Source: Eledone cirrhosa (Eukaryota). Taken from it: 64,000 nt of DNA. The position numbers and the translations under genes are program-made. The notes under the pieces were generated by a model. The model was not told the DNA's origin and did not search any database. It worked only from the letters and a program-made list of their open reading frames with translations. Shown here piece by piece: positions 4,786-64,000 of the stretch. The DNA lies in the NCBI GenBank assembly GCA_964016885.1, contig OZ024741.1, positions 310,806,001 to 310,870,000 of the forward strand, read 5' to 3'. How positions within the stretch are numbered: position 1 is the first letter of the stretch; each line of letters begins with the position of its first letter.

Positions 4786-4993
4786 ATGTATATATACATA
4801 CTTACATACATACATATATATTGACTAATACGGGTATTAACTCCAAGTCAACTATTATTTTGGACCTCTAGTATTAGGTTGGAGGATCAGGTATGACAGT
4901 ATTAATGAAAATGAGAAAAATATTTCAGGACAGACACGTAATTAAAGTATTCAATAAGTGAATACGATAACAAATGAGTTATTATCTTACCAG

Positions 4994-7055
4994 TGTGCAG
5001 ACATGTTCTATCCCGTCCAGGTCCATCCACGACAACCTCCACCTCATGCGATATATCATAGAGAGGGTTGGGAACGAACCCGGCTTTGGTGGGGCTCTGA
5101 TCAACTTGGATCAATCTAAGGCGTTCGATAGGGTCGACCATGGTTAACTGGATGCGGTGCTAGCGGCGGCAGTTTCGGACCCGTTTTCAGGGGCTGGATC
5201 AATGCCATGCACATCAGCCGCATCTGTTCTAGGCTCAAGGTGAACGGCTACCTCTCGGAGCCGTTCGAAATCGCGCGGTCCATCCGACAAGGGTGCCCTC
5301 TCTCCTCCCTTCTGTATGTAATGACTATAGAGCCACTGCTACGGAAGTTGGAGTTGTTGCAGGGCATCCCGTTGGAACCGGGATTGCGGAAAGCGGTGTC
5401 GGCCTACGCCGACGACGTAACAGTAATGTTGTCGACGGCCTCGGAAATCGGGGCGATCGGCACCTTACTGGAGGAGTACGAAAGGTTTACAGGGGCTAAG
5501 CTGAACCGGGACAAGTCGATCGGTCTGCAACTCAGCACGTGGAGGGGGCAGATCGATGCCTTCCGATGGCGTCGTCGGGCGCTGGACGGGGGGGGGGGCC
5601 GTGAAGTTGCTCGGGGTCTGGTTCGTACCAGACCTCCAGGTGGAAAAGAACTGGGGTGAGGTAACGAACAGGGTGTTTGCACTGACCCAGAAGTGGGCCG
5701 AGTGCAAACTGTCCCTGAAAGGTCGGGCGGAGGTGGCGAACACTTATATAGCGTCCGTCATCTACAACCGCCTGACCGTTGTGCCTTGCCCAAGGGAAAC
5801 GCTCGCCAACATGGAGTGCGCACTCTTCCAATTCCTTTGGAAGAAGCGGGCTCCTATGGTGAGGAGATCCATCTGCTGTCAACACCCTTCGAAAGGAGGG
5901 CTGGGGATGCCGTGGCTAATGATACGTAAACACGCATTAAGGCTGCGGCACCTCCAGGTATTCCTCACCGGTCAACCGGTGTGGGCCCCGTTTGTGAGGC
6001 GAGCCTTTCCCAGACTCGTCTCACTCACCGAGCTGCAATCCTTGTCAAGCAAAGACCGAGAAAACTGGGGGCCTGGCACACCGAGTGTGCCCAGGCGCTC
6101 ACGGCTCTCTGGCAGGCGGACCCGGCTGTCAGTGGAGAATCCACCTCGTCATTCTATAGAGGGCTGGTGGTTAGCAGGTGCGACGACGCCTTCGGAGAAG
6201 CCCTAGGCATGGAGGAAGACGAACTGGACAACCTGTTCGGTAGGACATTCAGCCCGGGACTCATGGATAACTTCCAGAGGTCCCTGGCCTGGCAGTGCTA
6301 CCGAGGGGCTCTTCCCGTTCGAGAAAGGCTCTACAAACACGGGCGCCCGGGTAGGGACCCTCGAAAAAGATCTGTCCCATATGCGTGTGCGACGAGGAAA
6401 CCGTTGCACACGCTTTGGTACACTGCTCGGGCATTGCCGATCTGTGGGGCTATGTCGAACAACTGCTGTCAAGGGTGGGACCGATCTGGTTGACCACCGA
6501 GTCTATTGTAACGATCAAGCCGCCTCCCCTCTTCAAAAACGAAGGAGAGGCGGTGTTTCTGTGCGTAATAGCCATGGCGAAAGAGGTTGTATGGTGGACG
6601 CGTCTGAAAGGACTGAGGTCAGAAATCTTTCTCTCTGGCCAACAACTGGTCCGTTTCTTCCGATATCATTTCGGAGGAAGGATTAGGATGGAGAGAGAGG
6701 TGCTGCACCCCAGCCGTTTTTATGAAAGATGGGTGAAAGTGGCGAGAATGGCCCGGGTGAATGGGCCTTCACATCAGACTAAAGGTGAGGAAGATGAAAG
6801 ACCAAGGGGGCACCCCCTCTCTGTGCTCCTGAGGAGAAGGGTTGCACACTTTTTTTCGGGGGTGTGCGCGACTCCCCAAGGCGCCTCCTCCATATTGAGG
6901 ATTTTGTTACAAAATTTATTTTGTTATATTTTATTTTATTTTTATACTTTTATATCTTGTTATTGCCTCCTCCATATTGAGGACGCCTTTGCATGTAAAT
7001 TCCCCCCATTGTACTTGTCCCACTTTTGATGCCCTGGTGGCAAATAAAAAGAAAG
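4994..7055 (+). mobile_element. 5'-truncated Tx1-clade (L1 superfamily) LINE with a 12-bp TSD
   Basis: RT motifs RQGCPLS and AYADD, C-terminal C..ETVAHAL..C knuckle, frameshifted. TSD TTATCTTACCAG at 4982-4993 and 7056-7067. The site is empty in U2 and U3. Confidence 0.92.
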
Positions 7056-7064
7056 TTATCTTAC

Positions 7065-7128
7065 CAGCTGCTGAAGTTGACTGCCATGTTAATAATTTAA
7101 TAAATCCAGCAATAGAAAGGCAGGACAT
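7065..7128 (-). CDS. Probable first coding (signal-peptide) exon of a host gene, copy 1
   Basis: ATG, MSCLSIAGFIKLLTWQSTSAA plus 1 nt, then CTG|GTAAG phase-1 donor. Conserved in all three units. Confidence 0.5.
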
Positions 7129-7730: not shown

Positions 7731-7779
7731 TAATGACAATCTTTCTGTTTCAGGGAACGGTTATTATTATTGGACGTAC

Positions 7780-7847: not shown

Positions 7848-7853
7848 ATTATT

Positions 7854-12300: not shown

Positions 12301-12315
12301 CATTATTATTATTAT

Positions 12316-17544: not shown

Positions 17545-17676
17545 CTTGGCAACGGTCACCAATAAAATCTCCGGCACATCCATCTGAACATGTTCCATGT
17601 CGTGTGTCACAATTGCTGTCGTTGATACAATGGCATATACCATTACAAGCAACACCAAACTTTCCTACTGAGCATT
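17545..17676 (-). CDS. Internal exon encoding one MEGF10/SCARF-type EGF-like repeat
   Basis: ttttcag|(E)CSVGKFGVACNGICHCINDSNCDTRHGTCSDGCAGDFIGDRCQ(G)|gtatat; 132 nt, phase 1-1, 8 Cys, open. Confidence 0.85.
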
Positions 17677-18487: not shown

Positions 18488-19149
18488 ACGTTTGTTTTTG
18501 AGTGTGGAACGGTCAAACATTTATTTACTTCAATGACAAAGAGAACTTATTACATTTCATACGACACAACCATTATTTAAAAGCAACAGTTAAATTTATT
18601 CAACAACAAAAAAAAAAGCGATAAATCTTTTTTAAAACATCTCTCAACGAATGTGGAAGAAAGAAGTATCAGTTCATTTACTATACACAATAATATCCAC
18701 TATGAGGTCACTAAACCTTTTAGAAACAGCAGCTAACTTTCCCCCATATCACACCACGCCCTACTTTCTTAAATTTAGAAGACATATCCTCTATGAGGTC
18801 ACTAAACCTTCTAGAAACAGCAGCTAATTCTCCCACATATCACACCCCTCCCTACTGTCTTAAATTTAGAAAACACACATTAGACAACCATGCAGAACAA
18901 CTCCATCGCAGCTCTGTAGTTCAGCTGACATCGTCTACGCGCGTGTTGCGCAAGTACTGTGAAACGATACATTTCAACACTTCTTTGCACAGAGATAATA
19001 TCCATAGGCGAAACTAAAATTGTCTCCGCTGGCACAGCGCCTGCCTCGGCAGTCCAGGTTTGCAATTCATTCACCCAGTGCCTGTGTTTAACACGTGTTA
19101 AAGTATTAAGTGTTCATTAAAAATAGGTGCGTAAGGAGTAAAGTATGAT

Positions 19150-25621: not shown

Positions 25622-25704
<83 letters not shown>

Positions 25705-26790
25705 TATATATATATTAGTAAAAGGAAAAGAAAATGCTGACAAATCACATGCAGCGTGAAAATGGAAATGAATTATATATTGGAGCATCTATGTACAACA
25801 ATAATAACTAAGTGAAAAAATGCTTAATTTAACGATACTGATAATTATAGTTGGTAGATGGTGGGGGTGGTGCATTAGTTGTTTTTCCGGGAGGCGGAGG
25901 AGTGGGTTGCTGAGAACTACCATTTGGTTGGTTCTGCATCCACTGACTGTACATAAAAGCCATATTTTGTAAGTTTTGCAAACTCTGTGCACCAGTTCCA
26001 CTAGCTGCAGTAGCATTTTGTTGAGTAGTACTTGCCGATTGTGTTGGAAGAGGTGCTGGAGCTGCTCCATAACCATTCATCTGGTAAGAGTTCTGTGGCT
26101 TTTGAGACCCATACTGTTCAGGTGCTTGTACAGGTTGTGAATTATTCTGAGTGTTATAGTTTGACTAATTTTGAGTAGGATAACTGGCATTTTGAGATGG
26201 ATAATTAGATTTAGGAACCACATTGCTACCAGTATTATAATTAGGTTTTGAATGTATTCCATAACCACCGGTCTTGATCCCTACACTAGCGCCATAACTG
26301 ACTACACTATTTTGGTTAAAATTACCAGAGTTAGCTGAAAATCGATTTCTTTCAGAACTACCACCTGGCTTAGACCCAAATGATCCTCTAGACTGAGTAC
26401 CAGCCCCATAATTTCCTGAACCCGAAGACCCATAGCCTCCACGAGAACCACCTCCACGATAACGGCCACTACCATAGCTGCTCCCACGAGAACCACCTCC
26501 ACGATCACCACGGCTGCCACTAGATCCAAAGCGGCCACCACTTCCATCATCTCTATCCCTGCCACCTCTGTAGCGACTGCGTCCTTTTCCAAATATTCCT
26601 CTTGCACCCTCTGCCAATTGCATTAATTTAGGATTGATGACTTGGTTAGCTTCTTTAAGCACAGACATAAGGTCTTGTGCTTGTTTCATATTAGCAGGAG
26701 TGAAGAAAGTGTACGCAGTGCCAGTATTGTTGCTGCGAGTAGTTCTCCCAATACGGTGAACATAGTCTCCTGAGGTGGCCGGGTAGTCAA
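25481..26790 (-). pseudogene. DDX5/DDX17: Processed DEAD-box helicase DDX5/DDX17 (p68/p72) 3' fragment with 3' UTR
   Basis: [20 protein letters not shown]...EANQ.INPKL, RGG-rich tail and poly-Pro C-terminus; premature stop at 26165; no N-terminus. Confidence 0.88.
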
Positions 26791-26933
26791 AGTTTAAGCA
26801 AACAATCGCTGCTTTCACCCTTAACGGGATCTTCTGAAACTAACGAAGTCCATTTGCTCTACGGTTCTTATATATTTAATATATATTTACCCTAATCGAG
26901 CTCTCTTTGGATTTTAGTATTCAAATTTATTAT

Positions 26934-26980
<47 letters not shown>

Positions 26981-26984
<4 letters not shown>

Positions 26985-27431: not shown

Positions 27432-27432
<1 letters not shown>
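26981..27432. mobile_element. Small inverted-repeat element in (TA)n with hammerhead-like folds (U1-specific)
   Basis: Arms ~26981-27130 and ~27205-27352; TATTGAGTAC at 27376; absent at U2 ~54505. Confidence 0.7.
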
Positions 27433-27464
<32 letters not shown>

Positions 27465-27493
27465 ATATATACATACTTACATACATACATACA

Positions 27494-28346: not shown

Positions 28347-28410
28347 CAGTTGCTAAAGTGGACTGCCATGTTAATAATATAATAAATCCAGCAATAGAAA
28401 GGCAGAACAT
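28347..28410 (-). CDS. Probable signal-peptide first exon, copy 2
   Basis: MFCLSIAGFIILLTWQSTLAT plus 1 nt |GTAAG; 64 nt. Confidence 0.55.
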
Positions 28411-29051
28411 TGCAAGCCGAGTTAAATTATAAATCGAAAGTGAGGAAAATTCAGCTGTTTTATGTTTTGTCACTACGATGCTAACGGAATTATCGTTAGC
28501 GTTCAGTGTCACGAGACGGCGTGTGCACCCTTTGTGCTAAACTTCAGTAGATTACTCATGTTCTATTTCACTATATGATATGTTTATGAGGTGATGACTG
28601 TTTTAGATTTAGTGTTATACATATATTTATTTATTTATTGATACAGAATGGGAAAAGAAATAATCTCGGCATTTTCAGTTCTGTCGTAGTGGACGAAACT
28701 GAGAGGAAGAAAGAGTAGAGATGTATTTTCCAGACATGCCCCGAATAGATCCAAACCACTTAAATCTGGTAAAGGTGCACAAATATTAGATGGTGATGTT
28801 ACACTATACATAATTGTTTCTACTTTTGGCACAAGAGCAGCAAATTACCCAGTACATTACTGGTACTTTATTTTATCGACCCCGTAAGGATGAAAGGCAA
28901 AGTTAAACTCGACGGGATTTTAACTCAGACTGTTACACTATACATAATTGTTTCTACTTTAGGCACAACGCCAGCAATTATCAGTGCATTACTGGTACTT
29001 TATTTTATACATAATGACAATCTTTCTGTTTCAGGGAACGGTTATTATTAT

Positions 29052-36200: not shown

Positions 36201-37350
36201 GGATGTGCTCCCATGGTCAGACGATCCGTTTGCTGTCAACACCCGTTGCGTGGAGGACTAGGCATGCCGTGGCTGATGTTGCGCAAACATGCGCTGAGGC
36301 TGCGACATCTCTGGTGCTTCCTTGACGGTGAACAGGTGTGGTTGCCGTTTGCCAGACACGCTTTTCACCAGCTCGTCTCCTTAACGGAGCTGCAGACCTG
36401 GATCAGGAAAAGACCGAGGGATAGCGCTTGGAACCTGGAATGTCTCCAAGCACTCACCGCCCTCTACCAGCTGGGCAAATCGGTGGTACATCCACCTAGG
36501 CGAACTAGACCGGGGCCTATGGACAACTTCCAGAAATCCCTGGCCTGGCAGTGCTACCGGGGAGAGTTGCCGGTTCGGGATAAGCTCTACAGGCACGGAG
36601 GTGCTGTCAACCGAGCCTGTCCGAGATGCACGCAGGGTGACGAAACCGTGCTGCACGCACTCGTTCTGTGCCCGAGGATTGCTGACTTGTGGAGCTATGT
36701 CGAATAGCTGCTGTCGCGTGTAGGACGGATCCGGTTATCGACTGAGTTCATTGTGCAGTTAGCCCCGCCATCCTCCTCTAAAAAGGAGGAAGGGCAGCCA
36801 GTTTTCATCTGCCTGGTGGCCATGGCGAAAGAGATTGTGTGGTGGACAAGGTTAAAAGGGTTGAAGTCGGACACTTTCCTCTTCGGCGAATCCCTGATTA
36901 ACTTTTTCAAGTTTCACTTGAAGAGGAAAATCAGGGTGGAGAGGCAGGTGCTGTCTTCTAGCAAGTTTGTTGAAAGGTGGGTGAATGTAGCGAGAAAGGT
37001 CCGGGTGAACGGGACCGCTCTGAATATACGCTTGTAGTTTGAGGAATGGGAAAAAACTGAGAAAGGATGCTTGCCCTGGTGGTCAGGGTTGTCGTGTTCT
37101 TTTGTGTGGTACTCGCTCCGAGTAACCCTCGGAGGTTTCCCCCATATTGAGGAATTTTTCATTGTTTGAACTTTCATTTTTATTGTTTATATATATATAT
37201 ATGTTTCTATGTATTTTTATTCTTTTTCGTTTCTTATATAAATAATAAAAATCTTTACACGCACAAAACCTACATCGTAACGTCCTGTAGCGTGCTGTGC
37301 CGTCTGTAATGTTTTTCTTAATGTCAGCCCTTGTGGACAACAAATAAATC
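33216..37350 (+). mobile_element. Decayed Tx1 family B (U2, most complete copy)
   Basis: APE, RT and zinc-knuckle fragments in ORFs 33615-37037. Confidence 0.92.
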
Positions 37351-37365
37351 ATTATTATTATTATT

Positions 37366-40300
37366 GGTAACCTACGTATTATCGTGAGCTCCACAAAGGT
37401 TTGTCGTTTTCAGTTGTTTCAAATTGCCAGTTATAGAAAATCTTTGTGTTTATAAGTTTTTATAAGGTCACATATATTGATATCTAAAAAGGACACTCAA
37501 TAATATTGGGGCCCTTGAGCCCCAAATTAAAACTTTTATTTATCAAACAAAATATTTCTTTTAAAAAAAACATCGACGACAAATCTCCTGCTTTTAACAG
37601 ACACCCCGAATCCTACCATTGTAAAGCTTGCCACGGTTGCCAACACTGAAAATATAATTAATAGTAGCCTCAATTATTTAAATTTGCCGCATCCAGACAT
37701 GGATTTCCCGTCATTACCAATAACTGCAGGTGTTAAAGCAGCCACCCCCACCTTCACAATGTCAAAAAGAACAACCAACACCACTGATAACGCCACCACC
37801 AAAAAAAACCCCCAAAAGAAAAAATCCCCTTCCTTCGCCCACCAAAAAAAAAATGAAGGGGGGAAACAAATAAGCAAACAAACAAAAAAGTTAAGACAGC
37901 TATACCACCACCCACACCAGCATCACCAACACCACAAAAATCACCAGAAAGCGAAACAGAAACAAACCCACAGCAAACGCAAATAAAACAAAACAACCAT
38001 AACGATACACACTACACAGCATTAAATTTGAACAATAACCAATTATTACACTACATCTAACACAACACCAGCATAACAGAAAAAGACTACACAACACCCC
38101 AAAAGTTCACACTACCTCCACACATACAAATCACTCGCATCACACAGAAAACGTACACGACACTAAAACAAAAGTTCCCCAAAGACATGGGATTCTGCCG
38201 ACAAACACTCTCCAGGAGGATTTATAAGGATATCCTTCCGGAGGATATCCTTCCGGAGGAGGCCAAAATCAGTGAGAAGGATGGAGAAACCATCCTTCCT
38301 CTACGAGATGTGAGGTAAGTGATCTTTCCTATCTTTTTCCACTCCTTTTCAACATGACCTCACTCAGAATAGGCAGCATAAATGCGCGTGGCATGCGGTC
38401 GTCATGGATGCAAGGCCACCCGCTCAACGACCTCAGGTCACTAAACATAGATGTGGTGGCAATCAGCGGGACCAGAATCTCCGAAGCATGAGCCTTCGAA
38501 CCGATCTTCGGCGGCTACGATGTGTACGCATCTCCCAGCCGTCCTGGATCGGGGGGAAGAGTTGCTGTGCTTTTTCGGAGAGGTTTGGATCTCACCATAC
38601 GGGCCATCTTCCTGGACCCAGAAGGTAAGTTGGTGGTGCTGGACGTGACCAGCGAAGACGGGCAAGCTTTCAGATTAGTGGCCGTCTATGCGCCGACAGG
38701 AGCAGTGCGGCCTGATTTCTTCCGGCCTCCGGAGACCTTTCTTGGAACGTCCCGCTCTTTAGTGTTAGTGGGCGACTGGAACGGGATCTTAGATGCACGC
38801 TGGGACTGTGTGGGATTAGCGAATAGGAGAGGAGGGTGTAAAAGCTTCGCAAACCTGCTCAGACGGTTTCCACTGTCTGACAGGTACCGTATTGTCTTCT
38901 CGAATGTGTCAATGTGGACATGGACAAACCGCATCGGTCATCCAGATCATATCTAGATAGGGTATTTTGTAGGGAAATAGATAGGTCTAGCATAGGCTGT
39001 CCACATTTCAAAATAGTCGACTACACGGACCACAAATTCATGATCTGTGAGGTTGACTTAGATAGGCTTCATAGAGAGGGACCCGGCTACTGGAAGCTAA
39101 ATGCGTCATTAACAGCGCTCAAGGCCTATCGAGACCGGATTAGCGAACTAGTTAAGCGAGCGTTGACGGGGTCCATCGTCAACAACAAGAGAGCGATTAG
39201 AATAGAGTCCATTAGGTTTAGTAAGGCTTTAGCAATAGAGAAAAATAGAGCAGAGGGAGGACTAGTTAGAAAATTAGACGAGGCGCTTAATAAAGTCATC
39301 GCGATCGATATACTTTTCACAAAATTTGCCCTTGACCAATTCTTCAATGCAAAGCACGAAGGCTGCGTTGTCAGAGCTAGGGTGCGTGCTCTCAGACACG
39401 AGGGGACGAAAGCCGTTCAATGGGTCCGAGTGGTGGAGGCGCGTCGTGGCAACAAAGCCACGATCCGGTCTTTGGTGAACCACGACGGGTGCATGCTACT
39501 CGATTCCGGGAAATGTGTGAAGCTTTTCAGCGACACTTCGCTCAGTTGTTCGGGGGCAGCGGCGGTGCGGATCGAGGGATGGACTTTAGTGCCTACCTCG
39601 ACGGACATCCGCGGCTCTCGGCCACTGAGGCGGAGTGTTCCGAAAGGCCGATAACAGCCGCTGAAGTACGGAAGGCAATGACTGGCTACACAAGAGGTAT
39701 ATCGCCTGGTTTGGATGGTCTGCTCTACGAACTTTATGTACAGATGCCAGACTTGTACGGAGGCCTCTTGGCGGACGTCTACGGCAACTGGCAACAGAAC
39801 GGGAGAATTCCCAGCTCTGTGAGTCGAGGAGCGGTGGCGCTGCTGAGAAAGGATCAGAACAAGGGGATAACAGATAATTTCAGGCCTATAACTGTACTAA
39901 GCACAGAGTTCAAGATTTTGGCCAAGGTGCTAGCAAACAGATTGGCCCTTGTCGTTGTTGGTCTGGCGGGAGAGGCGCAGACATGCGCCATTCCAGACAG
40001 ATCCATTCACGACAACCTCCACCTCATGCGATACATCGTGGAGAGGGTAGCTAGGGAACCTGGCACGGGTGGGTCCTTCATCAATTTAGATCAGTCGAAA
40101 GCTTTCGATAGGGTCGACCATCGTAATCTGGCGGCAGTCTTGAGGGCGGTTGGCTTAGGACCCGTCTTTAGAGGCTGGATCGCTGCCATTCACAGCAACA
40201 TCTGCTCTGTGGTGACAGTGAACGGTCACCTTTCGGAACCGTTCAACATCATGCGCTCGGTCCGCCTAGGATGTCCCTTCTCGTCCCTCTTGTACGTATT

Positions 40301-41935
40301 GACTCTCGAGCCATTACTGCACAAACTGGTGACGTTGAGGGGCGTCCCGCGCGAACTAGGATGCGGAAGATCCGTATCAGCATATGTGGACGATGTCACC
40401 ATAGTGGTGTCGAACGCCAAACACATCGAGGCGATCGGCACTACACTCAGAGAATACGAAGCGGTGACAGGAAAAGTCAGTGGCGCTGCAACTCGGCACA
40501 TGGAGAGGCAGGTCCATGCCGTCCAACAGCGTCGTCGGGTGCTGGACGGACGGACCGGTTAAATTGCTCGGGGACTGGTTCGGTCCGGACCTCCAGACGG
40601 ACAAAAACTGGGACGAGGTGACGAGCAGGCTGGCTTCTCTCACCCAGAAATGGGCGGAGAGGAAGCTATCCCTGAAAGGTCGAGCGGAGGTGGTTAACGC
40701 GTACATCACGTCCGTCATCTGCTACCACCTGACCGTCGACCCTGTGGCTTTATGTCGAACACCTGACTGCTCTTATGATTTTTGTGGAAGGGAAGCGCTC
40801 CGATGGTCAGGCGGTCATCTGGTGTCAACACCCGCTACGTGGATGGCTGGGAATGTCTTGGCTGAGGATGCGCAGACACCCGCTCAGGCTACGACATCTC
40901 CACCTCTTCCTCGACGGTGATCAGGTGTGGTCGCCGTTTGCTAGATGCGTCTTTCCCCAGCTCGTCTCCTTGACGGAGCTGCAGACCTGGGTCAAGCGAA
41001 GACCGAGAGGAGGCGCTTGGAGACTGGAATGTTTTCAGGCGCTCACAGCTTTCGACCAATCGAGCAATGTGATCGGTGGAAACTCCACCTCGGCGTTCTA
41101 TAGAGGATTAGTGGAGGGGAAGAGCGACGACGTGATTGGGGAAACTCTAGGACTCGACGAAAATCAACTAGCCAATCTCTTCGGAAGAACTTTCGGGCCG
41201 GGGCCTATGGACAACTTCCAGCAATCTCTTTCCTGGAAGTGCTACCGAGGAGCCTTGCCAATTCGGGTAAACTCTACAGGCATGGAGGTGACGTCAGCCT
41301 GGCATGTCCGAGATGTGCGCAGGGCGACGAAACCGTCCTGCACGCACTCGTCCAGTGTCCGAGAATTGCTGACTTGTGGCTTTATGTCGAACACCTGCTG
41401 TCGAGTGTAGGATTGCCCCGCCCTCTTCCTAGCCGGTAAGGTCAGGCATTTTATATCTGTCTGGTGGCCATGGCGAAAGAGATAGTATTGTGGACACATT
41501 CGAAAGGGCTGAAGACGAGCACTTACCTCTTCGGTGATGCCCTGATTACCATTTTCAAATTTCATTTGAAAAGGAAAATCAGGGTAGAGAGGGAAGTGCT
41601 CTCTTCCCAGCATTTTGTTGAAAGATGGGTGAGAGAAGCAAGAATGGCCCGAGTGAATGTGTCTACTCTGAGTAGGTGTCTGTAAATTAAAGGTGGACAA
41701 CTGTGAGAGGGCACTTGCCCTGGTGATCAGCGTAACTGTGGCCTTTTAATAGGATTTCTCCACAAATGTCCCTCGGAAGCCTCCCCTCTATTGGGAAATT
41801 TTTCATCGTTATTTGTTTGTTACATCCTCTGTTTTTGTGTTTTACACGCAGAAATGCCCATTTGTACCGTCCTGTATTGTCCTGTACTGTCCTTAATGTC
41901 TACTTTATGTAAACCCTTGTGGTTAACAAAGAAAG
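37366..41935 (+). mobile_element. Decayed Tx1 family C (U2)
   Basis: ORF fragments 38522-41685; (TTA)n on both sides. Confidence 0.92.
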
Positions 41936-41954
41936 TATTATTATTATTATTATT

Positions 41955-42035
41955 ACAGTTGCATTTATCTTGCTCTATGTTCATACGAGCAAGGATTCTT
42001 CGCCCGATGTTAACTCTGTTTTCCAGGACTTCATA

Positions 42036-42087
<52 letters not shown>

Positions 42088-42466
42088 GTTCTTTGAGTCT
42101 CAGTCATTGATGTTATTTAACTGGAAAGTTTGTTGAAATGAATATCAAGCTGCTACCTGCAGCCTCAGATATTCAGGACGTATCCTAGCAAGCATGCCTT
42201 TTGAAGTGTTCCAAAAAGTGGGGCTGGACTAATCTTCTTTAACCATCCCTGGAAACTCCTTGAGATAGTACCTAGTGCGCCTATGACAATCGGGACCACT
42301 TTGACTTCATGGCAGTTCCAATTCCTTTTTACCTCCCACTTTAAGTCCTGGTATCGGTTAATTTTCTCCCTCTCCTTCTCTTGCACTCTCGTGTCGAATG
42401 GGCAGGCCACATCCACAATCAGGCACGATCCTTTTTCCTTGTCCAAAACCATCAGGTCAAGTCTAT
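41955..42466 (-). mobile_element. Dong/R4-clade LINE 3' fragments
   Basis: NR.DL.V.DK....LIVDVACPFD......EK..RYQDL..E...W...V.VVPIVIGALG (restriction-like endonuclease motif). Confidence 0.8.
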
Positions 42467-42846
42467 TGTGGATTGGCAGTATGGGTAGAGGGTCGGACGC
42501 CATGCTTTCTAGCATAGTTACGTCCCTTTACAGACTGAGTTCAAATCCCACTGAGGTTAACTTTGCCTTTCATCCTTACGGGGTCGATAAAATAAAGTAC
42601 CAGTAATGTACTGGGAAATTGCTGGCCTTGTGCCAAATGTAGAAACAATTATTATTATTATTATTGGTGGATTGGCAGTATCAGTAGAGGGTCGGACGCC
42701 ATGCTTTCCAGCATAGTTACGTCCCTTTACGATCTGAGTTCAAATCCCGCCGAGGTTGACTTTGCCTTTCATCTTTACGTGGTCGATAAAATAAAGTACC
42801 AGTAATGCACTGGGTAATTGCTGGCCTTGTGCCTAAAGTAGAAACA

Positions 42847-42847
<1 letters not shown>
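42467..42847 (+). mobile_element. Two tandem SINEs in (ATT)n (U2-specific)
   Basis: Copies at ~42467-42649 and ~42665-42847; absent at U1 ~17110. Confidence 0.88.
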
Positions 42848-42887
<40 letters not shown>

Positions 42888-43285: not shown

Positions 43286-43417
43286 CTTGGCAACGGTCAC
43301 CAATAAAATCTGCGGCACATCCATCTGAACATGTTCCATGTCGTGTGTCACAATTGCTGTCGTCGATACAATGGCATGTACCATTACAAGCAACACCAAA
43401 CTTTCCTACTGAGCATT
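43286..43417 (-). CDS. EGF-like repeat exon, copy 2
   Basis: (E)CSVGKFGVACNGTCHCIDDSNCDTRHGTCSDGCAADFIGDRCQ(G); AG/GT intact, 132 nt. Confidence 0.85.
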
Positions 43418-44210: not shown

Positions 44211-47200
44211 GAGAGAGAGAGAGAAGAGAGGGAGAGAGAACGTTTGTTTTTGAGTGTGGAACGGTCAAATATTTATTTACTTCAATGACAAAGAGAACTT
44301 ATTACATTTCATACGAAACAACCATTATTCAGAAGCAACAGATAAATTTATTCAACAACAAAAGAAAAAGCGATAAATTTTTTTTAAAACATCTCTCAAC
44401 GAACGTGGAAGAAAGAAGTATCAGTTCATTTACTATACACAATAATATCCTCTATGAGGACACTAAACCTTTTAGAAACAGCAGCTAACTCTCCCCCATA
44501 TCACACCACGCCCTACTTTCTTAAATTTAGAAAACATATCCTCTATTATGTCACTACACCCTCTAGAAACAGAAGCTAATTCTCCCACATATCACACCCC
44601 TCCCTACTGTCTTAAATTTAGAAACTCACATGAGACAACCACGCAGAACAACTCCATCGCAGCTCTGTTGTTCGGCTGACATCGTCTACGCGCGTGTTGC
44701 TCAAGTACTGTGAAACAATAAATTTCAACACATCTTTGCACAGAGATAATATCCATAGGCGAAACTAAAATTGTCACCGCTGGCACAGCGCCTGCTTCGG
44801 CAGTCCAGGTCTGCAATTCATTCATCCAGTGCCTGGGTTTAACACGTGTTAAAGTATTAAGTGTTCATTAAAAATAGGTGCGTAAGGAGTAAAGAATGAT
44901 AGATAACAGAAGACCAAGCAACCGGAAAAATATAACGTTTCCAGAAAATAATAAAAGATATTGCAAATTCTTATAAGTCTCTAAATACAAATTACTAATC
45001 AACAAGCCATGAGAGATAACTGCAGAAAATGAAAGAATCATATTAAGTATGGCATGGATTGATTAGCATGAGATTTTGACAATAGAAATCATTCATCATC
45101 TATATCACATGTAAGTAGCAAACAATTCTGCAAATAAATAGAAAAGTTGTACTTATATACAAAGAGACTATCCTAGTAAAAAGAAGGATATTTTAACGGG
45201 ACACCCACTCATCACTTCTCTCCTATCTAGCACTGAAACCAATAACTGAGATACTGAACAAGACTAGACACGAATATAAATGGTAGGGTAAGACAAATAT
45301 AAATAATTCAAAATGGAAAATCTAAAGCTGCATGCTGCAAACAGAAGGAAATTGAAACACTGGTGGAAAGACTACATAGATTCACAAAGGAATTAAGCAG
45401 AACTTGAGAAAGCGAACATAATCTTTGATGTCCCAATTCGCACAGACGTTAAGATCAAAGACAACTGATCCGATAATATAGGGAAACAACACAAAGAAAG
45501 AGTATTGCCTACTAACTGACGGATATATATATAAGTAGAAAACAAATTACTGGGATAGCCTAGGTAAATTGAATGTTCCCGAAATACGCCGACTTGTTCG
45601 TCAGCTACATCGAAGCTCAAATTTTCTCCCAGTATACTGCACCTACCCCTGAGCTATACGGCCGTTACATCGAGTATTCTATCGGCGTCACTTCTTTCTC
45701 CCATGAACAGCTTGACCCCTCTTTTTCTTTTGTCCAGTCTTTCCAACCCACCCTTACTCCATTATCTCCTTAACTAGGTTTAACTATGTATGCCTAGCAA
45801 GGGCAGAGGGAAAAAAGCAATTGCTCAAGTTCTTCGTCGCAAAGATCCGTTGAAGGAAGTATATCGGATTATAAGAGAGTGTGCTAGAGAAAATCGTGAA
45901 ATGGTCGAAATGGTAGTGGAACACTTACCCTATCTTATGCTGAAAAGAAGGAGACATAGAGTACTTACTATGAGAGACTACTGAACGAAGAGAATAAATG
46001 GGACAGTAAGGGCTTACCGCATGTAGAGCTGACTAAGGGCTCAGCTAAGAAGTTGACAGCAGTGAGATAAATAAAGCAATTAAGGACATGGAGGTAGAGA
46101 AAGCTACTCGTCCATCTGGTATATTTGTTGAGAGGCTAAAAGCACCTGGCATCTGGTATATTTGTTGTATACCTGGCATCTGGTATATTTGTTGAGAGGC
46201 TAAAAGCACCTGGCAGTGAAAGATCTAAACTAGTTATCTTCAGTACGGTATTCGTGTGAACACTCATTATGGTCATGAATCTTGGATAATGACCAAAACA
46301 ATATGATCGTGGATGCAAGCGTCAGAAATGGCTTCCTCCAAAAGGTATTTTGAGTAACGTTACTCAATAGAGTGCGTAGCTCGGAGATCAGGTTTTCCTC
46401 CAGGGAGAGTCGCTACTTCTCCGAATTGAGAGATTACAGATACAATACTATATGAAATTGTTTAGAATGTCTCGGGAAAAAAATCGCTAGACAGATGTTA
46501 CGGGTAAATGCAACCGGTAGGAAGCCCAGTGTCCGCGCAATATGGTTGCATAACATCCATGAGCTCATCTGGTCGAGATTGGGGATAGAGCCGGTCATTT
46601 GGAGAGGGTTACTTCCGACAAACCCACTGGAAGGAATGGTTGAAGACTCTTCCCCCACCCACTACAATCTTAAGAAGAAAGAGAAGAAGAAGAAGAAGAA
46701 GAAGAAGAAGAAGAAGAAGAAGAAGAAGAAGAAGAAGAAGAAGAAGAAGAAGAAGAAGAAGAAGAAGAAGAAGAAGAAGAAGAAGAAGAAGAAGAAGAAG
46801 AAGAAGAAGAAGAAGAAGAAGAATAGTGCCATTGAGTCCCCCTTTATAGTGCGACGACTGCTTGAGAGGTACTTAGTTAAGTGTAAGCCATTGCATCTGG
46901 ATTTTGAAGATAGGGAGAATGCCTTTTACAGGGTCCCATTCTCTGTAATATGGTGGACACTTAGGAAGTTAGATGTATATGAATGTCTTGTGAGAGCATT
47001 GTGGGCCATGTATAAAAAAGCTGGAAGCCAGTAGTGTGATGAAGTGCAGTTCGATGTCCACCGGGGCTCAGTCCTTAGTCCACTCCTATTTGTCACTGTT
47101 CTTCCCTGTTCTTCACGGAGTATTTCAAAACTGGTACTCCGTGGGCGTTCCTATATGCTGATGACCTCTTCCTTAAAATGAATCCGTAGTACGGTAAGGG

Positions 47201-48474: not shown

Positions 48475-50824
48475 ATACTTTGGGAGGGTCATGTTGTCAA
48501 TAAGAAACACACGCACCAGCTGTTTCACTTCAATTTATTATATATTTATAAATTTATAAATTTACAAACCTATAAATTTCTGGTTGGTTGGTTGGTTCCA
48601 CAACCAGATAGTTGTTTATATATATAGTCATAGTCCTTTCGTCACACACTCTGTGACCTCTTCAGTGACTGGGGATTCCTTTCTTCGTTTCTGTGCCTTC
48701 CCTTTCTTCTATCCTACGCCATTTTGTTTCTGTGTGTGTGTTGTGTGCTCAGTTTGCGCATGCGCCACATCCGGGTGTCTGTGTGTGTTTGTGTTCATTT
48801 TTCTATTTTTCTATTTCTATTTTTCTATTTGTTTATTTATTTATTTATTTATTGTTGGTTGGTTGTTTGTTCTATGTGTGTGTGTGTTTTCATTTTGTCC
48901 TGTGTGTGTTTTCATTTTGTGTGTGTTTTCAATTGTAAGTTGTTTGTTCTATGTGTGTGTGTGTTTTCATTTTGTCCTTAATTGTAAGTTGTGATGTTGC
49001 TGTTCCACTCATATTTTCTATTTAATTTTGGTTTTAATTCTTTTATGCTTACTGCCTCTGTAATTTGCCTAAACATTGCGTCTTTTCTGTGTGTGGATTC
49101 TATTTTTATTTCTATGCTCTCTAATCTACCCCTGTGTTCTATCTTAGCATGTTGGTAGAGCACAGATGATTCTTTATTATCTTGGAGGTCTCGCCAGTGT
49201 TCATTTATTCGTTCCCGTATACTACGAGCTGTCTCACCTATGTACACTATATTTTTGTTTCTACATTGTCCTTCAGTACATCTTATGCTATACACTACAT
49301 TTCTAGTTTTACAGTTAATATGGGGGCTTATTTTACAGGTTATACATTTCTTATCTATACATGAGGCTCTTTGGAACGGGTATGTCTTGCTAATAAGTGT
49401 TTTTACGGAGGTACCAGGTCTTTCTACTATCTTAATATTGAGATTATGTTTATTTAGGGCCCTTCTAAATTTGTAGGCTAGTTCGCCTCTAGGGGTTGTA
49501 TTGATGAACATTACACTCTGGTATTTATTGCTATCATACCATGAGTTTATTCTATTGGCCTTGTTCCTAGTTCTTTCTATTCTATTCCAAAATTTGCTCC
49601 TATACAAGGGGCAGGTCCCATTTATGTCATTATTTACCATTTTTTCCCATTTGGTTCTGGCTCCTTTATACACTCTGATTCTATCTCTCTGATTGTAGCC
49701 AGAGAACTGCATACGGTGGATGAAGTGTTGTATGTGTCTCTCTAGTTCTTCGGGGTTGCACATGCGGGACACATTTTTCATCACCCGTACCAAATCCGCA
49801 ATCAGTATGTTGATTTTGGTATGGTCCGAAATGGCCGAGTTTCGGTGGATCAGATGTTTGGAAGTCATGGGTTTGGCATAATGGGAATGGAGGATTTGTT
49901 TTTGGTTGTTAATGGTATCTAACCAGATCTCTGTGTCTAGTACAGGTAATCGATGGTTGGGGTGTCTACTTGGGTAGTCTATAGTAACTTTAATGCTCTA
50001 GTGGATGGAGTTTGCTATTTGCTGGATGCTTTCCATTGTGTTTTTCTCTAGTTCCTGACTGTTCTTTAGTGGGGGTGTCTTAACTACGATGTTTATATCA
50101 TCTACGTAGCGGGAGTACATTATCAGGGTTAAGCTGTCTTCTAATTGTTCATTAAGTTTTTGTTTAAGTCTACTGTCCCACCATACCATGAATAAGTTAG
50201 CTATGTCGCCTGCAATGCTAACACCAATGGCTGCTCCTTCCTCTTGGGCATATGTTTTACCATTAAATTTGAACATATGTTCCTTAAGGGTTAATTTTAT
50301 GCTGGCCCCTACCGCATGTGCAATCATTTTCTTCAGTTCATCGTGGTTTTCGGGTGTCTGTATGGCTCTGGTCCACCCGTTCCATCTATCTGTGTGGGTT
50401 TTCTTGACAATTGAGGTAATGGTAGGTGGTCTGCCTCTTGCTGGTCTTGTAGGGCACAGGTTGCTAAGGTCATAAGTGTCTAGGTAACTATTACTATGGG
50501 TAAGCTTAAGTAGAAGTCCCAGCTCACTGGTATCAATCCCACGGAACTCAACCTTGCTCTCGCTGATCATTTCTACGCATTTCTCCACAGCAAAATCCAC
50601 ATCGATAGATGGATACAGGGACACAACATCCATACTGCCTATTATGCAGTTTGTTAGGTCCCCAGATCGGTTACTCGCGCCGATTCTGCTGAGGAGGTCC
50701 TCCGTGCTGTCACACACATATGGGGACATCTCAATGACGGGGCGTATGATCAGGGAGAGGAAGTAGGACAGTCTGTAGTTACTAGCAATTTCAGATAAAG
50801 AATCTTGCTAAACAAATTCAGAAA

Positions 50825-53065: not shown

Positions 53066-54372
53066 ACACTGGAAAACCTTGCTTGTTGAGTGCTTCCAAT
53101 CTATTGTAAAACTCATTCTTTGATGTATTCATTGAACCTTGTTTAACTTTTAAATAAATAAATATATATATATATAAATATATATTAGTAAAAGGAAAAG
53201 AAAATGCTGACAAATCACATGCAGCGTGAAAATGGAAATGAATTATATATTGGAGCATCTATGTACAACAATAATAACTAAGTGAGAAAATGCTTAATTT
53301 AACGATACTGATAATTATAGTTGGTAGATGGTGGGGGTGGTGGATTAGTTGTTTTTCCAGGAGGCGGAGGAGGGGGTTGCTGAGAACTACCACTTGGTTG
53401 GTTCTGCATCCACTGACTGTACATAAAAGCCATATTTTGTAAGTTTTGCAAACTCTGTGCACCAGTTCCACTAGCTGCAGTAGCATTTTGTTGAGTAGTA
53501 CTTGCCGATTGTGTTGGAGGAGGTGCTGGAGCAGCTCCATAACCATTCATCTGGTAAGAGTTCTGTGGCTTTTGAGACCCATACTGTTCAGGTGCTTGTA
53601 CAGCTTGTGAATTATTCTGAGTGTTATAGTTTGAGTTATTTTGAGTAGGATAACTGGCATTTTGAGATGGATAATTAGATTTAGGAACCACATTGCTACC
53701 AGTATTATAATTAGGTTTTGAATGTATTCCATAACCACCGGTCTTGATCCCTACACTAGCGCCATAACTGACTACACTATTTAGGTTAAAATTACCAGAG
53801 TTAGCTGAAAATCGATTTCTTTCAGAACTACCACCTGGCTTAGACCCAAATGATCCTCTAGACTGAGTACCAGCCCCATAATTTCCTGAACCCGAAGACC
53901 CATAGCCCCCACGAGAACCACCTCCACGATAACGGCCACTACCATAGCTGCTCCCACGAGAACCACCTCCACAATCACCACGGCTGCCACTAGATCCAAA
54001 GCGGCCACCACTTCCATCATCTCTATCCCTGCCACCTCTGTAGCGACTGCGTCCTTTTCAAAATATTCCTCTTGCACTCTCTGCCAATTGCATTAATTTA
54101 GGATTGATGACTTGGTTAGCTTCTTTAAGCACAGACATAAGGTCTTGTGCTTGTTTCATATTAGCAGGAGTGAAGAAAGTGTACGCAGTGCCAGTAATGT
54201 TGCTGCGAGTAATTCGCCCAATACGGTGAACATAGTCTTCTGACGTGGCCGGGTAGTCAACGTTTATCACAAATTTAATATCATCCACACCTAAGCCTCT
54301 AGATGCAACATCAGTAGCAATCATAATTGGTATGCGTCCTGTTCTGAATTCACTTAGCACCCAGTCCATCTC
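53066..54372 (-). pseudogene. DDX5/DDX17: Processed DDX5/DDX17 3' fragment (longer copy)
   Basis: [45 protein letters not shown] is contiguous; premature stops, e.g. at 54058. Confidence 0.9.
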
Positions 54373-54542: not shown

Positions 54543-54580
<38 letters not shown>

Positions 54581-54770: not shown

Positions 54771-54835
54771 CAGCTGCTAAAGTTTGACTGCCATGTTAAT
54801 AATATAATCAATCCAGCAATAGAAAGGCAGGACAT
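54771..54835 (-). pseudogene. Signal-peptide exon copy 3, with a +1 nt insertion
   Basis: MSCLSIAGLIILLTWQS then TCAAACT (vs TCAACT/TCCACT); 65 nt to the GTAAG donor, so phase 2. Confidence 0.4.
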
Positions 54836-60250: not shown

Positions 60251-61438
60251 GAAAAAACATCACAGCTTCTCACTCCAAAAGCGAAAGCAAAGGGTAAAGG
60301 CTGTATGGAGAGGTGCAGCAACACCAGCTCCATCACCATCACCACCACAAGCATCACCACCAACATCAACCATAACACCACCAGCAACACCAAAAACGCT
60401 AACATCAAAAACATAGCAAAGCGTAACACACCCAACTGCAACTACAAGAAAACAGCACCCCCTCCCCGCAAAAAAAAGGTACACTGGCATAAACATTGCA
60501 CACAAAGGATTAATGGAACATATAAAACACCACACAGTTACTACACCCCACCAACACCAAGAACATTACCAACAAATATTACAATTGTCGAAATTAAAAT
60601 TGATAACTATAAACAATTAAAACAAAAACTTTCCCAACTGGGTTGGGGATTTCATGGAGTCACTGCTCAAAAGAATCTATACAGATATCGTCTTGGAGAC
60701 ACCCATGACCAGCCGAAGGGACGATTCTAATGTCCCTTCCCCACACGATCAAGGTAAGAGATCCTTTCTCACTTACCCCGTTCCTCACCCATATGGCCGT
60801 ACTCTGAATATGCAGTGTAAAGTGTAAATGTACGTGGCCTGGGGTCATCTTGGAAGCAGGTCACTTGCTCAACGATCTCAGGTCACTAAACATAGATGTG
60901 GTGGCCGTCAGTGAGACCAGAATCTCTGAAGCACGAGACTTCGCACCGATAGTCGGCGGCTACGATATATACGCATCTCCCAGCCGTCCAGGATCGGAGA
61001 TGCAGGATGTGTGTCAACCGAGCCTGTCCGAGATGACCGCAGGGTACACGCACTCGTTCTGTGCCCGAGGGTTGCTGAATTGTCGAGCTGTGTCAAACAG
61101 CTGCTGTCGCGTGTAGGACGGAGATTGTGTGATGGACAAGGTTGAAAGGGTTGAATACGGACACTTTCCTCTTCGGCGAATCCCTGATTAACTTTTTCAA
61201 GTTTCACTTGAAGATGAAAACCAGGGTGGTGAGGCAAGTGCCGTCTTCTAGCAAGTTTGTTGTAAGGTAGGTGAATGTAGCGAGAAAGGTCCGAGTGAAC
61301 GGGTCCGCTCTGAATATACGCTTGTAGTTTGAGGAATGGGAAAAAACTGAGAGAGGACGCTTGTCCTGGTGGTCAGGGTTGTCGTGGTCTTTTGTGTGGT
61401 ACTCGCCCCGAGTAACCCTTGTGGCCAATAAATAAATC
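60251..61438 (+). mobile_element. Tx1 family B (U3, heavily deleted)
   Basis: The APE start is joined to the C-terminal region at ~60997. Confidence 0.88.
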
Positions 61439-61453
61439 ATTATTATTATTATT

Positions 61454-64000
61454 GGCGACCGACGTAGGAAATCGTATTATCGTGAGCTCCACAAAGGTTT
61501 GTTGTTTTCAGTTGTTTCAAATTGCTAGTTATGGAAAATTGTTGTGTTTATAAGTGTTTATAAGTTCACATATATTGATATCTAAAAAAGACACTCAAGA
61601 TATTGGGGCCCTTGTGCTCAAAATTAAAACTTTTATTTATCAAACAAAATATTTCTTTTAAAAAAAACATCGACGACAAATCTCCTGCTTTTAACAGACA
61701 CCCCGATCCTACCATTGTAAAGCTTGCCACGGTTGCCAACACTGAAAATATAATTAATAGTAGCCTCAATTATTTAAATTTGCCGCATCCAGACATGGAT
61801 TTCCCGTCATTACCAATAACTGCAGGTGTTAAAGCAGCCACCCCACCTTCACAATGTCAAAAAGAACAACCAACACCACTGATAACAGCACTAACAAAAT
61901 AGAACCCCCCAAAAAAAAAATCCCCTTCCTTCGCCCTCCAAAAACAAAATGCAGGGGGAAACAAATAAGCAAGGCATCACAAGCCCCATCACCACAACAC
62001 CAACATCATGACCACCATCATTAACCCCACAACCACCATCACCAACACCATAAAAATCACCAAAAAAGCGAAACAGAAACAAACCCACAGCAAACGCAAA
62101 AAAAACAAAACAACCATAACGATACACACTACACAGCATTAAATTTGAACAATAAGCAATTATTACACTACATCCAACACAACACCAGCATAACAGAAAA
62201 AGACTACACAACACCCCAAAAGTTCACACCACCTCCACATATACAAACCACTCGCATCACAGAAAACGTACACGACACTAAAACAAAAGTTCCCCAAGGA
62301 CATGGGATTCTGCCGACAAACACTCTCCAGGAGGATATATAAGGACATCCTACCGGAGGAGGCCACAATCAGTGAGAAGGATGGAGAAACCATCCTTCCT
62401 CTACGAGATGTGAGGTAAGTGATCTTTCCTATCTTTTTCCACTCCTTTTCAACATGACCTCACTCAGAATAGGCAGGATAAATGCGCGTGGCCTGGAGTC
62501 GTCATGGAAGGATGGCCACCCGCTCAACGACCTCAGGTCACTAAACATAGATGTGGTGGCCATCAGCGGGACCAGAATCTCCGAAGCATGAGCCTTCGCA
62601 CCGATCTTCGGCGGCTACGATGTGTACGCATCTCCCAGCCGTCCTGGATCGGGGGGAAGAGTTGCTGTGCTTTTTCTGAGATGTTTGGATCTCACCATAC
62701 GGGCCATCTTCCTGAACTCAGTAGGTAAGTTGGTGGTGCTGGACGTGACCAGCGGAGACGGGCAAGCTTTCAGATTAGTGGCCGTCTATGCGCCGACAGG
62801 AGCAGGGTGGCCTGATTTCTTCCGGAGTCTGGAGACCTTTCTTGGAAGATCCCGCTCTTTAGTGTTAGTGGGCGATTGGAACGGGATCTTAAATGCACGC
62901 TGGGACTGTGTGGGATTAGCGGATAGGGGAGGAGGGTGTAAAAGCCTCGCAAACCTGCTCAGACGGTTTTCACTGTCTGACAGGTACCGTCTGGTTTTCT
63001 CGCATGTGCCAAAGTGGACATTGACAAACCGCATCGCGTCATCCAGATCATATCTAGATAGGGTATTTTGTAGGGAAATAGATAGGTCTAGCATAGGCTG
63101 TCCACATTTCAAAATAGCCGACTACACGGACCACAAATTCATGATCTGTGAGGTTGACTTAGATAGGCTTCATAGACAGGGACCCGGCTACTGGAAGCTA
63201 AATGCGTCATTAACAGCGCTCAAGGCCTACAGAGACCAGATTAGCGAACTAGTTAAGCGAGCTAGGGTGCGTGCTCTCAGACACGAGGGGACGAAAGCCG
63301 TTCAATGGGTCCGTATGGTGGAGGCGCGTCGTAGCAACAAAGCCACGTTCCGGTCTTTGGTGGACCACGACGGATGCATGCTACTCAATTCCGGAAAATG
63401 TGTGAAGCTTTTCAGCGACACTTCGCTCAGCTGTTCGAGGGCAGCGGTGGTGCGGATTGAGGTTTGGACTTTAGTGCCTACCTCGACGGACTGCCGCGGC
63501 TCTCGGCCACTGAGGCGGAGTGTTCCGAAAGGCCGATAACAGCCGCTGAAGTACGGAAGGCAATGACTGGTGCATAAGAGGTATATCGCCTTGTTTGGAT
63601 AGTCTGCTCTACGAAGTTTACGTACAGATGCCAGACTTGTACGTAGGCCTCTTGTCGGACGCCTACTGCAACTGGCAAGAGAACGGGAGAATTCCCAGCT
63701 CTGTGAGCCGAGGAGCGGTGGCGCTGCTGAGAAAGGATCCGAACAAGGGGATAACATAGATAATTTCAGGCCCATAACTCTGCTAAGCACAGAGTTCAAG
63801 ATTTTGGCCAAGGTGCTAGCAAGGAGGTTGGCGCTTGTCGTTGGTGGTCTGATGGGAGAGGCGCAGACGTGCGCCATTCCCGACAGATCCATCCACGACA
63901 ACCTCCACCTCATGCGATACATCGTAGAGAGGGTAGCTACGGAACGTGGCACGGATGGGTCCTTGATCAATTTAGATAAGTCGAAAGCATTCTATAGCGT
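61454..64000 (+). mobile_element. Tx1 family C (U3, continues past the window)
   Basis: APE ORF 62622-63539 and the start of RT. Confidence 0.9.

What the first reader, a model, noticed from the sequence alone, without database searches (positions are those of the whole stretch)
4820..64000. ~25 kb tandem array repeating a signal-peptide exon plus EGF exon cassette
Seen: on the minus strand the order is SP exon (54771-54835), EGF exon (43286-43417), SP exon (28347-28410), EGF exon (17545-17676), SP exon (7065-7128). The SP donors in U1/U2 are phase 1 and the EGF exons are phase 1-1, so those SP exons can splice in frame to any downstream EGF exon. Both EGF exons keep all 8 Cys and their splice sites while the neighbouring TEs decay. 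I found no terminal exon inside a unit. Inference: an array of alternative promoter/N-terminal cassettes feeding a shared 3' part left of the window (clustered-protocadherin-like logic for a MEGF/SCARF/RPTP-type receptor), or repeated partial gene duplicates.
Basis: partly seen in the sequence, partly recalled or inferred. Interest (0 to 1): 0.75.

Follow-up and report, generated by a model that had tools for sequence, protein, structure and literature searches.

The report
Repeated front end of octopus receptor
A gene-boundary segment was copied six times in a row, leaving six signal-peptide exons and ten intact EGF exons ahead of a single membrane-anchor exon of a likely octopus cell-surface receptor; the EGF exons are likely chained into a longer stalk while most extra starts are damaged, rather than picked one at a time as in protocadherins.

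Summary
The exons are real and at the stated places. The window is the middle of a 165-kb array of six units (17-34 kb, about 5% apart, so not a false duplication). The unit is not SP-then-EGF: it runs EGF exon, intergenic spacer, promoter and SP exon, and joins at one shared chimeric junction. It straddles the end of a truncated gene and the start of the next. No unit holds a membrane or tail exon; one of each lies about 98-100 kb left of the window. The locus belongs to a family of about 35-40 SP-EGFn-TM genes, which this scan had already noted on other DNA of this genome; on contig C10, 20 SP and 20 TM exons alternate. No phosphatase exon lies in either cluster. Four of five internal SP exons are damaged (one frameshift, three with lysine in the hydrophobic core; 0 of 30 elsewhere), while six of six EGF copies keep all cysteines (P about 0.02). 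Best reading: unequal crossing-over lengthened a chained EGF stalk; any active inner start would give a shorter nested form. Protocadherin-like cassette choice is unlikely. No RNA covered the exons.

The parts
54771..54835 (-). Inner signal-peptide first exon, 65 nt, 1-nt insertion makes it phase 2 (frameshifted)
   Evidence: the only 65-nt exon among 35 examined; not checked against reads
53170..54266 (-). DDX5/DDX17-like processed retrocopy fragment carried in the unit
48981..50807 (-). Penelope-like relic (reverse transcriptase plus GIY-YIG, both below Pfam cut-off); passenger
44815..44838 (.). Unit junction: SP-intron DNA (right) joined to the upstream flank of the EGF exon (left)
   Evidence: the same junction 71-mer occurs at 4 places in the array
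43286..43417 (-). EGF-like exon, 132 nt, phase 1-1, 8 Cys, intact AG/GT
28411..28570 (-). Conserved block upstream of the ATG, predicted proximal promoter and short 5' UTR
   Evidence: family identity 0.87-0.97 over -160..-1 against 0.69-0.80 over -400..-161 (30 other members)
28347..28410 (-). Inner signal-peptide first exon, 64 nt, phase 1; the only inner copy with an undamaged coding sequence
25700..26796 (-). DDX5/DDX17-like processed retrocopy fragment (parent on C12, intron removed)
19064..19087 (.). Unit junction, second copy
17545..17676 (-). EGF-like exon, 132 nt, phase 1-1, 8 Cys, intact AG/GT
7065..7128 (-). Inner signal-peptide first exon, 64 nt, phase 1, Ile11 to Lys in the hydrophobic core
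4995..7055 (+). 2-kb LINE-like insertion just inside the intron after the 7065-7128 exon, with a 12-bp target-site duplication that spans the donor; the donor survives
29450..42850 (.). Spacer between EGF exon and next SP exon: LINE-rich DNA homologous to the intergenic DNA upstream of family promoters

Best explanation
The array is six tandem copies of a fused gene-boundary segment (an EGF exon, intergenic spacer, predicted promoter and signal-peptide exon) lying ahead of one membrane-anchor exon, likely made by unequal crossing-over, and its likely effect is to add EGF exons to one chained receptor stalk while most inner starts decay. Shown: anatomy, junction, single TM exon, lesions. Inferred: (1) a family gene lost its TM and tail exons and came to end on one EGF exon next to the promoter of the following gene; (2) one non-homologous join duplicated the segment across that boundary, and unequal crossing-over raised it to six units, one of which later lost its SP exon; (3) a transcript from an upstream start skips the inner SP exons, which have no credible acceptor, and includes each phase 1-1 EGF exon on the way to the TM exon; (4) one or two starts are active (best candidates 135118 with 10 EGF exons and 28410 with 4). 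The product would be a type I receptor of the molluscan SCARF/MEGF-like kind with a short tail.
For: Array ends and junction: window 43200-44815 matches the flank of the first EGF copy (to 121390), 44838 onward matches the SP intron of the last unit (to -43905); same in the next unit; junction found 4 times. Spacer matches DNA upstream of outer promoters. The next two genes repeat outer SP, EGF, inner SP, EGFs, TM, and there the outer SP is weakened or dead (donor change; stop at codon 2). On C10, 20 SP and 20 TM exons alternate, with 5-11 EGF-like exons between them in the three genes mapped. Inner SP exons: Lys11 in 3 of 5, frameshift in 1 of 5; neither in 30 others. EGF copies: 19 variable columns, none hits a Cys or makes a stop, expected share 0.188, P 0.019; the retrocopy riding in the same units has stops in 3 of 5 copies. 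All 10 intact EGF exons have AG acceptor and GT donor in phase 1. Site patterns among units conflict, as expected from recombination.
Against: No transcript was seen, so chaining and skipping are inferred. The P of 0.019 is one test on a lower-bound count of changes, and the exon is not more conserved than its introns (19 of 132 against 71 of 633 variable columns, Fisher p 0.30; pN/pS 1.37). Lys11 may be a single event, and whether it stops secretion was not tested. The predicted promoter block is retained in all inner copies. A 200-N gap at 130939-131138 lies between the outer SP exon and its first EGF exon. A broken EGF exon at -55535 keeps its acceptor and would have to be skipped. The tail exon is a prediction from conservation only.
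Confidence: 0.55

Rival explanations
1. Functional promoter ladder: three or more of the six starts are used, each giving the same receptor with a nested stalk of 2, 3, 4, 6 or 10 EGF repeats and a different outermost EGF.
For: Five of six SP exons keep ATG, 64-nt length and GT donor; the upstream block is conserved in all; counts of downstream EGF exons; EGF changes are mostly amino-acid changing; a partial tandem duplication gives two used first exons at Arabis PEP1 (PMC3527215).
Against: Lys11 drops the best 9-residue hydropathy to 1.8 against 2.1-3.1 in the other 32 exons; one start is frameshifted and one was deleted; units are young enough that intact ATG and donor are expected without selection.
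Confidence: 0.2
2. Dead or nearly neutral locus: the whole array is debris of a birth-and-death cluster and makes no useful protein.
For: Broken EGF-like exons are common in the family (8 of 31 hits in the 864-kb C2 stretch); the upstream neighbour has 5 of 6 EGF exons broken and no SP or TM exon; the gene's original SP (-31216) carries Lys11; exon divergence is not below intron divergence.
Against: Six of six array EGF exons, the two downstream EGF exons and the 91-nt TM exon are open with intact splice sites; no Cys or stop hit in 19 changes (P 0.019).
Confidence: 0.15
3. Protocadherin- or sDscam-like choice: each promoter makes SP plus one EGF and splices past all later cassettes to the shared 3' exons.
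For: Six first exons share one TM exon; chelicerate sDscam-beta shows that multi-exon cassettes with their own promoters can be mutually exclusive (PMC9258826, passages).
Against: The unit boundary falls between SP and EGF, so the cassette is a by-product of the junction; the last SP has no EGF of the array type behind it; later EGF acceptors are as good as the first; complementary matches between array introns and the DNA before the constant exons were microsatellites, also found in controls; only one 43-residue module, 81-93% identical to the 17676 copy for the four copies aligned, would vary.
Confidence: 0.07
4. Assembly artefact (false duplication).
For: Repeat-rich region; a 200-N gap lies 10 kb upstream of the array; no long read was laid across it.
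Against: No N inside the array; six units differ by 3-6% with private insertions and deletions; two haplotypes cannot give six such copies.
Confidence: 0.03

Closest known systems
[quoted passage not shown]
   Same: Clustered molluscan genes with signal peptide, EGF-type repeats, one TM helix and a small tail; many gene fragments in the cluster.
   Different: Different class of mollusc; orthology not tested. The parts read do not describe several signal-peptide exons nested among EGF exons ahead of one TM exon.
Octopus sinensis and O. vulgaris F5/8-EGF-TM-PTP receptors (P0152, P0153, P0006, P0167) and O. sinensis 'protein draper' (P0007)
   Same: Best protein hits; same 8-Cys repeat, 52-57% identical to the window's EGF.
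   Different: They carry a galactose-binding F5/8 domain and most a phosphatase; neither was found here; signal peptide and TM sequences differ.
Arabis alpina PEP1 partial tandem duplication (PMC3527215; abstract and section 12 read)
   Same: A partial tandem copy of the 5' end gives more than one first exon for shared downstream exons, perhaps from rearrangement of an array of full genes.
   Different: Two copies, shown by RNA, same protein; here six starts, interleaved coding exons, no RNA evidence.
Chelicerate sDscam-beta (PMC9258826, passages) and vertebrate clustered protocadherins (PMC7811963, passages)
   Same: Tandem 5' units each with a promoter upstream of one shared 3' part.
   Different: There the cassette holds the specificity domain (or the whole ectodomain and TM) and later cassettes are skipped; here the unit is a gene-boundary fusion, most starts are damaged and no skipping device was found.
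LPA kringle IV type 2 and CR1 long homologous repeats (recalled, no paper read)
   Same: Exon-plus-intron amplification by unequal crossing-over that lengthens an ectodomain.
   Different: Those units carry no promoter or first exon.

Membership tests
Molluscan SCARF/MEGF-like single-pass receptors (LG5R subgroup 1A type) | N-terminal signal peptide | tested here: inconclusive
   Hydrophobic 21-residue first exon conserved in 35 copies; no SignalP available; 4 of 5 inner copies damaged
Molluscan SCARF/MEGF-like single-pass receptors (LG5R subgroup 1A type) | Tandem 8-Cys EGF-like repeats | tested here: met
   8 invariant Cys; profile hits SCARF1 chain 8hna_B at E 0.0013; 23 of 31 members match PF24887 at E up to 1, best 9.2e-05
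Molluscan SCARF/MEGF-like single-pass receptors (LG5R subgroup 1A type) | One TM helix and a small tail without domains | tested here: met
   91-nt TM exon, 19-residue hydropathy 3.37; candidate tail ends after 24 residues; tail is a prediction
Molluscan SCARF/MEGF-like single-pass receptors (LG5R subgroup 1A type) | InterPro IPR052108 or IPR042635 signature; orthology to the snail genes | not testable with these tools
   No InterPro library; snail proteins not fetched
Receptor-type protein tyrosine phosphatase (F5/8-EGF-TM-PTP) | PTP domain | tested here: not met
   None of 72 PF00102 matches lies in C2 310.2-315.6 Mb or C10 25.8-27.4 Mb; tblastn of 150 proteins over 864 kb found only EGF exons and a transposon hit
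Clustered protocadherin-type locus | Tandem first exons, each with its own promoter, ahead of one constant region | tested here: inconclusive
   Six SP exons per TM exon, conserved upstream block; promoter activity not shown
Clustered protocadherin-type locus | Variable exon encodes ectodomain and TM; no acceptor-bearing exon between first exons | tested here: not met
   First exon is 21 codons; acceptor-bearing EGF exons lie between the starts
sDscam-beta-type multi-exon cassettes | Duplication unit equals a promoter-to-domain cassette | tested here: not met
   Unit boundary lies between SP and EGF
sDscam-beta-type multi-exon cassettes | Docking site and selector sequences | tested here: not met
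   Only microsatellite matches, also in controls; search limited to 1.5 kb and 3 kb flanks, matches of 15 nt or more
sDscam-beta-type multi-exon cassettes | One cassette per transcript, shown by RNA | not testable with these tools
   No laid run on record as RNA covered the exons

The most novel reading that the evidence does not exclude
A telescoping receptor gene: up to five working promoters, each with its own signal-peptide exon, sit between chained EGF exons, so promoter choice sets stalk length (2, 3, 4, 6 or 10 repeats) and the outermost, fast-changing EGF module of one octopus recognition receptor. This would be a nested alternative to protocadherin-style cassette choice, born from a gene-boundary fusion.
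Probability: 0.2. Interest if true: 0.72.

Novelty: new variant of a known kind. Interest (0 to 1): 0.4.

Why it matters
As it stands it is a clear record of how a clustered receptor family grows ectodomains and recruits extra first exons: a junction across two neighbouring genes, amplified six times, with a retrocopy as internal clock. If several starts are used, promoter choice would tune the length and tip of a likely recognition receptor, a directly testable route by which variable-first-exon loci can begin. The family itself (about 35-40 genes in two clusters) resembles snail receptor clusters tied to schistosome resistance and was not found described for cephalopods in my paper searches (listings only).

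Tried and rejected
RNA: no RNA holder listed for window 25720-29400. Eight run layings (7 different runs of 24 listed) gave no contig on the SP exon and no spliced contig on the EGF exon; the small shares came from a SINE at 28810-28933; only the DNA-like run X21 covered the whole EGF exon. This says nothing on expression. Single-exon protein search found nothing. tblastx between neighbouring genes was swamped by microsatellites. A TATA box as marker of live promoters was rejected: 6 of 35 SP exons have it, all in the inner clade. Import of EGF variants from outside paralogues as the reason for intact Cys: not supported (7 of 19 columns, null 0.23, p 0.13). Docking/selector pairing: microsatellite. 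Missed exons in the unit: intron-1 blocks shared with C10 genes are 82-89% identical and gave only short, unconvincing candidates. A lysine-rich repeat after the TM exon has stops or frame changes in the copies read and was not accepted as coding. A CAG 46 nt before the inner ATG would keep frame with an EGF exon but has an A-rich tract. TM comparison with P0006 was run in the wrong frame and is void. One of 20 fetched SP stretches (L121) gave no motif match and was left out of the 35. No fold or complex prediction was run.
Full report
Observation. The SP exons at 7065-7128 and 28347-28410 are 64 nt with a GT donor in phase 1; the one at 54771-54835 has an extra base (65 nt, phase 2) and would meet a stop at the EGF junction. 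Both EGF exons are 132 nt, phase 1-1, with 8 Cys. The rest of each unit is LINE relics, a Penelope-like relic, microsatellites and a DEAD-box helicase fragment.

Setting. The window is G000 C2:310806001-310870000 in a 3.0-Gb genome. The best protein relatives of the EGF module are Octopus receptors, so an octopod is inferred. The SP exon has at least 40 copies (40 of 53 candidates scored; 40 of 59), the EGF exon at least 150 (150 of 1321 scored), almost all in two clusters, C2 310.3-315.1 Mb and C10 25.8-27.3 Mb. Comparing genes on C10 with C2 revealed a 91-94-nt TM exon (phase 1 to 2) and a short candidate tail exon. A genome search gave 41 matches for the TM region. On C10, 20 SP and 20 TM exons alternate strictly (unscored candidates could add some). 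None of 72 PF00102 matches falls in either cluster, and 150 related proteins, many with F5/8 or PTP domains, hit only EGF exons and one transposon in 864 kb. So the family norm is one SP exon, several symmetric EGF exons, one TM exon, a short tail.

This locus. In 864 kb of contiguous C2 DNA (window coordinates, minus strand) the order is: outer SP 135118, EGF 128903, 127108, 120572, 103489, SP 80343, EGF 69860, SP 54835, EGF 43417, SP 28410, EGF 17676, SP 7128, EGF -11769, SP -31216, broken EGF -55535, EGF -64298, EGF -78565, TM -97554, tail -99922 (exact positions). A direct search found no TM or tail exon between -44000 and 135200. The next two genes each show outer SP, one EGF, inner SP, EGFs, TM; their outer SP has a changed donor or a stop at codon 2, their inner SP is clean.

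The unit. Window 43200-44815 matches the flank of the first array EGF exon up to 121390; 44838 onward matches the intron behind the last SP exon down to -43905; the next unit behaves the same at 19064/19087. The junction 71-mer occurs four times, with a short insertion and no long homology. The DNA between an EGF exon and the next SP exon matches the intergenic DNA upstream of outer promoters. So the unit reads EGF, spacer, promoter, SP, part of intron 1; it begins in one gene and ends in the next. There are six units over 165 kb; EGF spacing is 17083, 33629, 26443, 25741 and 29445 bp; the first unit lost its SP exon in a 9-kb deletion. The SP-then-EGF cassette is produced by the junction.

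Age and turnover. Units differ by 4.8-5.4% overall in two comparisons, 3.0-5.7% around the exons, with conflicting site patterns. A processed DDX5/17-like retrocopy (parent C12:29.03 Mb, GT-AG intron removed) is in 5 of 5 SP-bearing units and in no neighbour gene; its copies differ by only 1.0-2.6%. I infer a mosaic array still being homogenised. There is no N in the array; a 200-N gap lies at 130939-131138.

Selection. Among the six EGF copies 19 of 132 columns vary; none removes a Cys or makes a stop, against an expected share of 0.188 (P 0.019). The retrocopy in the same units has stops in 3 of 5 copies. Against this, the exon is no more conserved than its introns (Fisher p 0.30) and pN/pS is 1.37. 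The SP exons go the other way: of 5 inner copies, 3 have Ile11 to Lys (hydropathy 1.8 against 2.1-3.1) and 1 is frameshifted; neither change occurs in 30 other family exons, of which 1 has a stop. The 160 bp upstream of the ATG is conserved across the family. Inner SP exons have no AG in the last 45 nt before the ATG.

Mechanism. Shown: anatomy, junction, single TM exon, lesions. Inferred: from any upstream start the inner SP exons are skipped and the EGF exons, all with the same acceptor and phase, are chained, as the family's multi-EGF genes imply. Intact EGF exons downstream of each start number 10, 6, 5 (frameshifted start), 4, 3 and 2. I put 0.55 on stalk lengthening with one or two live starts, 0.2 on a used ladder of three or more, 0.15 on a dead locus, 0.07 on one-cassette choice, 0.03 on artefact. 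The idea of chaining was taken from an earlier unreviewed note of this scan on the same family and checked here only through splice sites and phases. RNA could not decide.

Known systems. The product fits the Biomphalaria LG5R scavenger class F-like receptors, subgroup 1A (PMC13712769; abstract, passages, section 20), and the profile hits SCARF1 in the PDB. It works like an exon-array stalk (LPA, CR1; recalled) combined with a PEP1-like partial duplication (PMC3527215; abstract, section 12). It fails the tests for protocadherin clusters (PMC7811963, passages) and sDscam-beta (PMC9258826, passages): unit boundary, acceptor-bearing exons between starts, no docking site. Five full-text searches (listings only) showed no paper on this family in cephalopods or on signal-peptide exons nested among EGF exons; subscription journals and supplements were not covered.

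Verdict. Real, a new variant of a known kind: gene-boundary amplification in a large receptor cluster. Interest 0.40; 0.72 if several starts prove to be used.

Noticed in passing
window 25700-26796 and 53170-54266; parent G000 C12:29029753-29031882 (L141): DDX5/17-like processed retrocopy in 5 of 5 SP-bearing units; copies 1.0-2.6% apart while the rest of the units differ by about 5%, a useful clock and a sign of mosaic homogenisation.
   Followed up: yes
G000 C10:25.84-27.34 Mb (L061-L080, L128-L140): Cluster of 20 SP-EGFn-TM genes at about 60-kb spacing, three mapped genes 98-99% identical in long blocks, one gene inverted.
   Followed up: partly
G000 C2:310401000-310657500 (L004-L006, L081-L100, L111): Two neighbouring genes with the same outer SP, EGF, inner SP layout; the outer SP has a changed donor in one and a stop at codon 2 in the other.
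   Followed up: yes
G000 C2:311027000-311111000 (L036-L040, L112-L116): Upstream pseudogene: 5 of 6 EGF exons broken, intron-1 DNA and tail exon kept, SP and TM exons missing.
   Followed up: partly
TM exons of the family: TM exons differ strongly in amino acids between genes while SP exons are almost constant; not quantified.
   Followed up: no
L073:8600-8900 and paralogues near window -101200 and 220600: A 12-bp-type purine-rich repeat after the TM exon that reads as Gly-Lys-Asp-Ser repeats but has stops or frame changes in the copies read; coding status unclear.
   Followed up: partly
window 4995-7055: LINE-like insertion whose 12-bp target-site duplication copies the splice donor of the 7065-7128 exon.
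   Followed up: yes
G000 C2:232220445 and 232418777; PTP exons at C2:232.70-233.04 Mb: Weak (71%) matches to the TM-exon region lie near PTP exons 78 Mb away; possibly the EGF-TM-PTP genes from which this family arose.
   Followed up: no
G000 C14:9149860-9164507, C22:17643413, C10:12086702: Intronless full PTP domains in long open frames, three in tandem on C14.
   Followed up: no
window 2186-4140: A 2-kb degenerate TA microsatellite at the left of the finding.
   Followed up: no
G000 C1149:56000-83000 (L142-L145): Unplaced contig with an outer-type SP exon, partial TM-region matches and a tail exon but no EGF exon found at the search threshold.
   Followed up: partly
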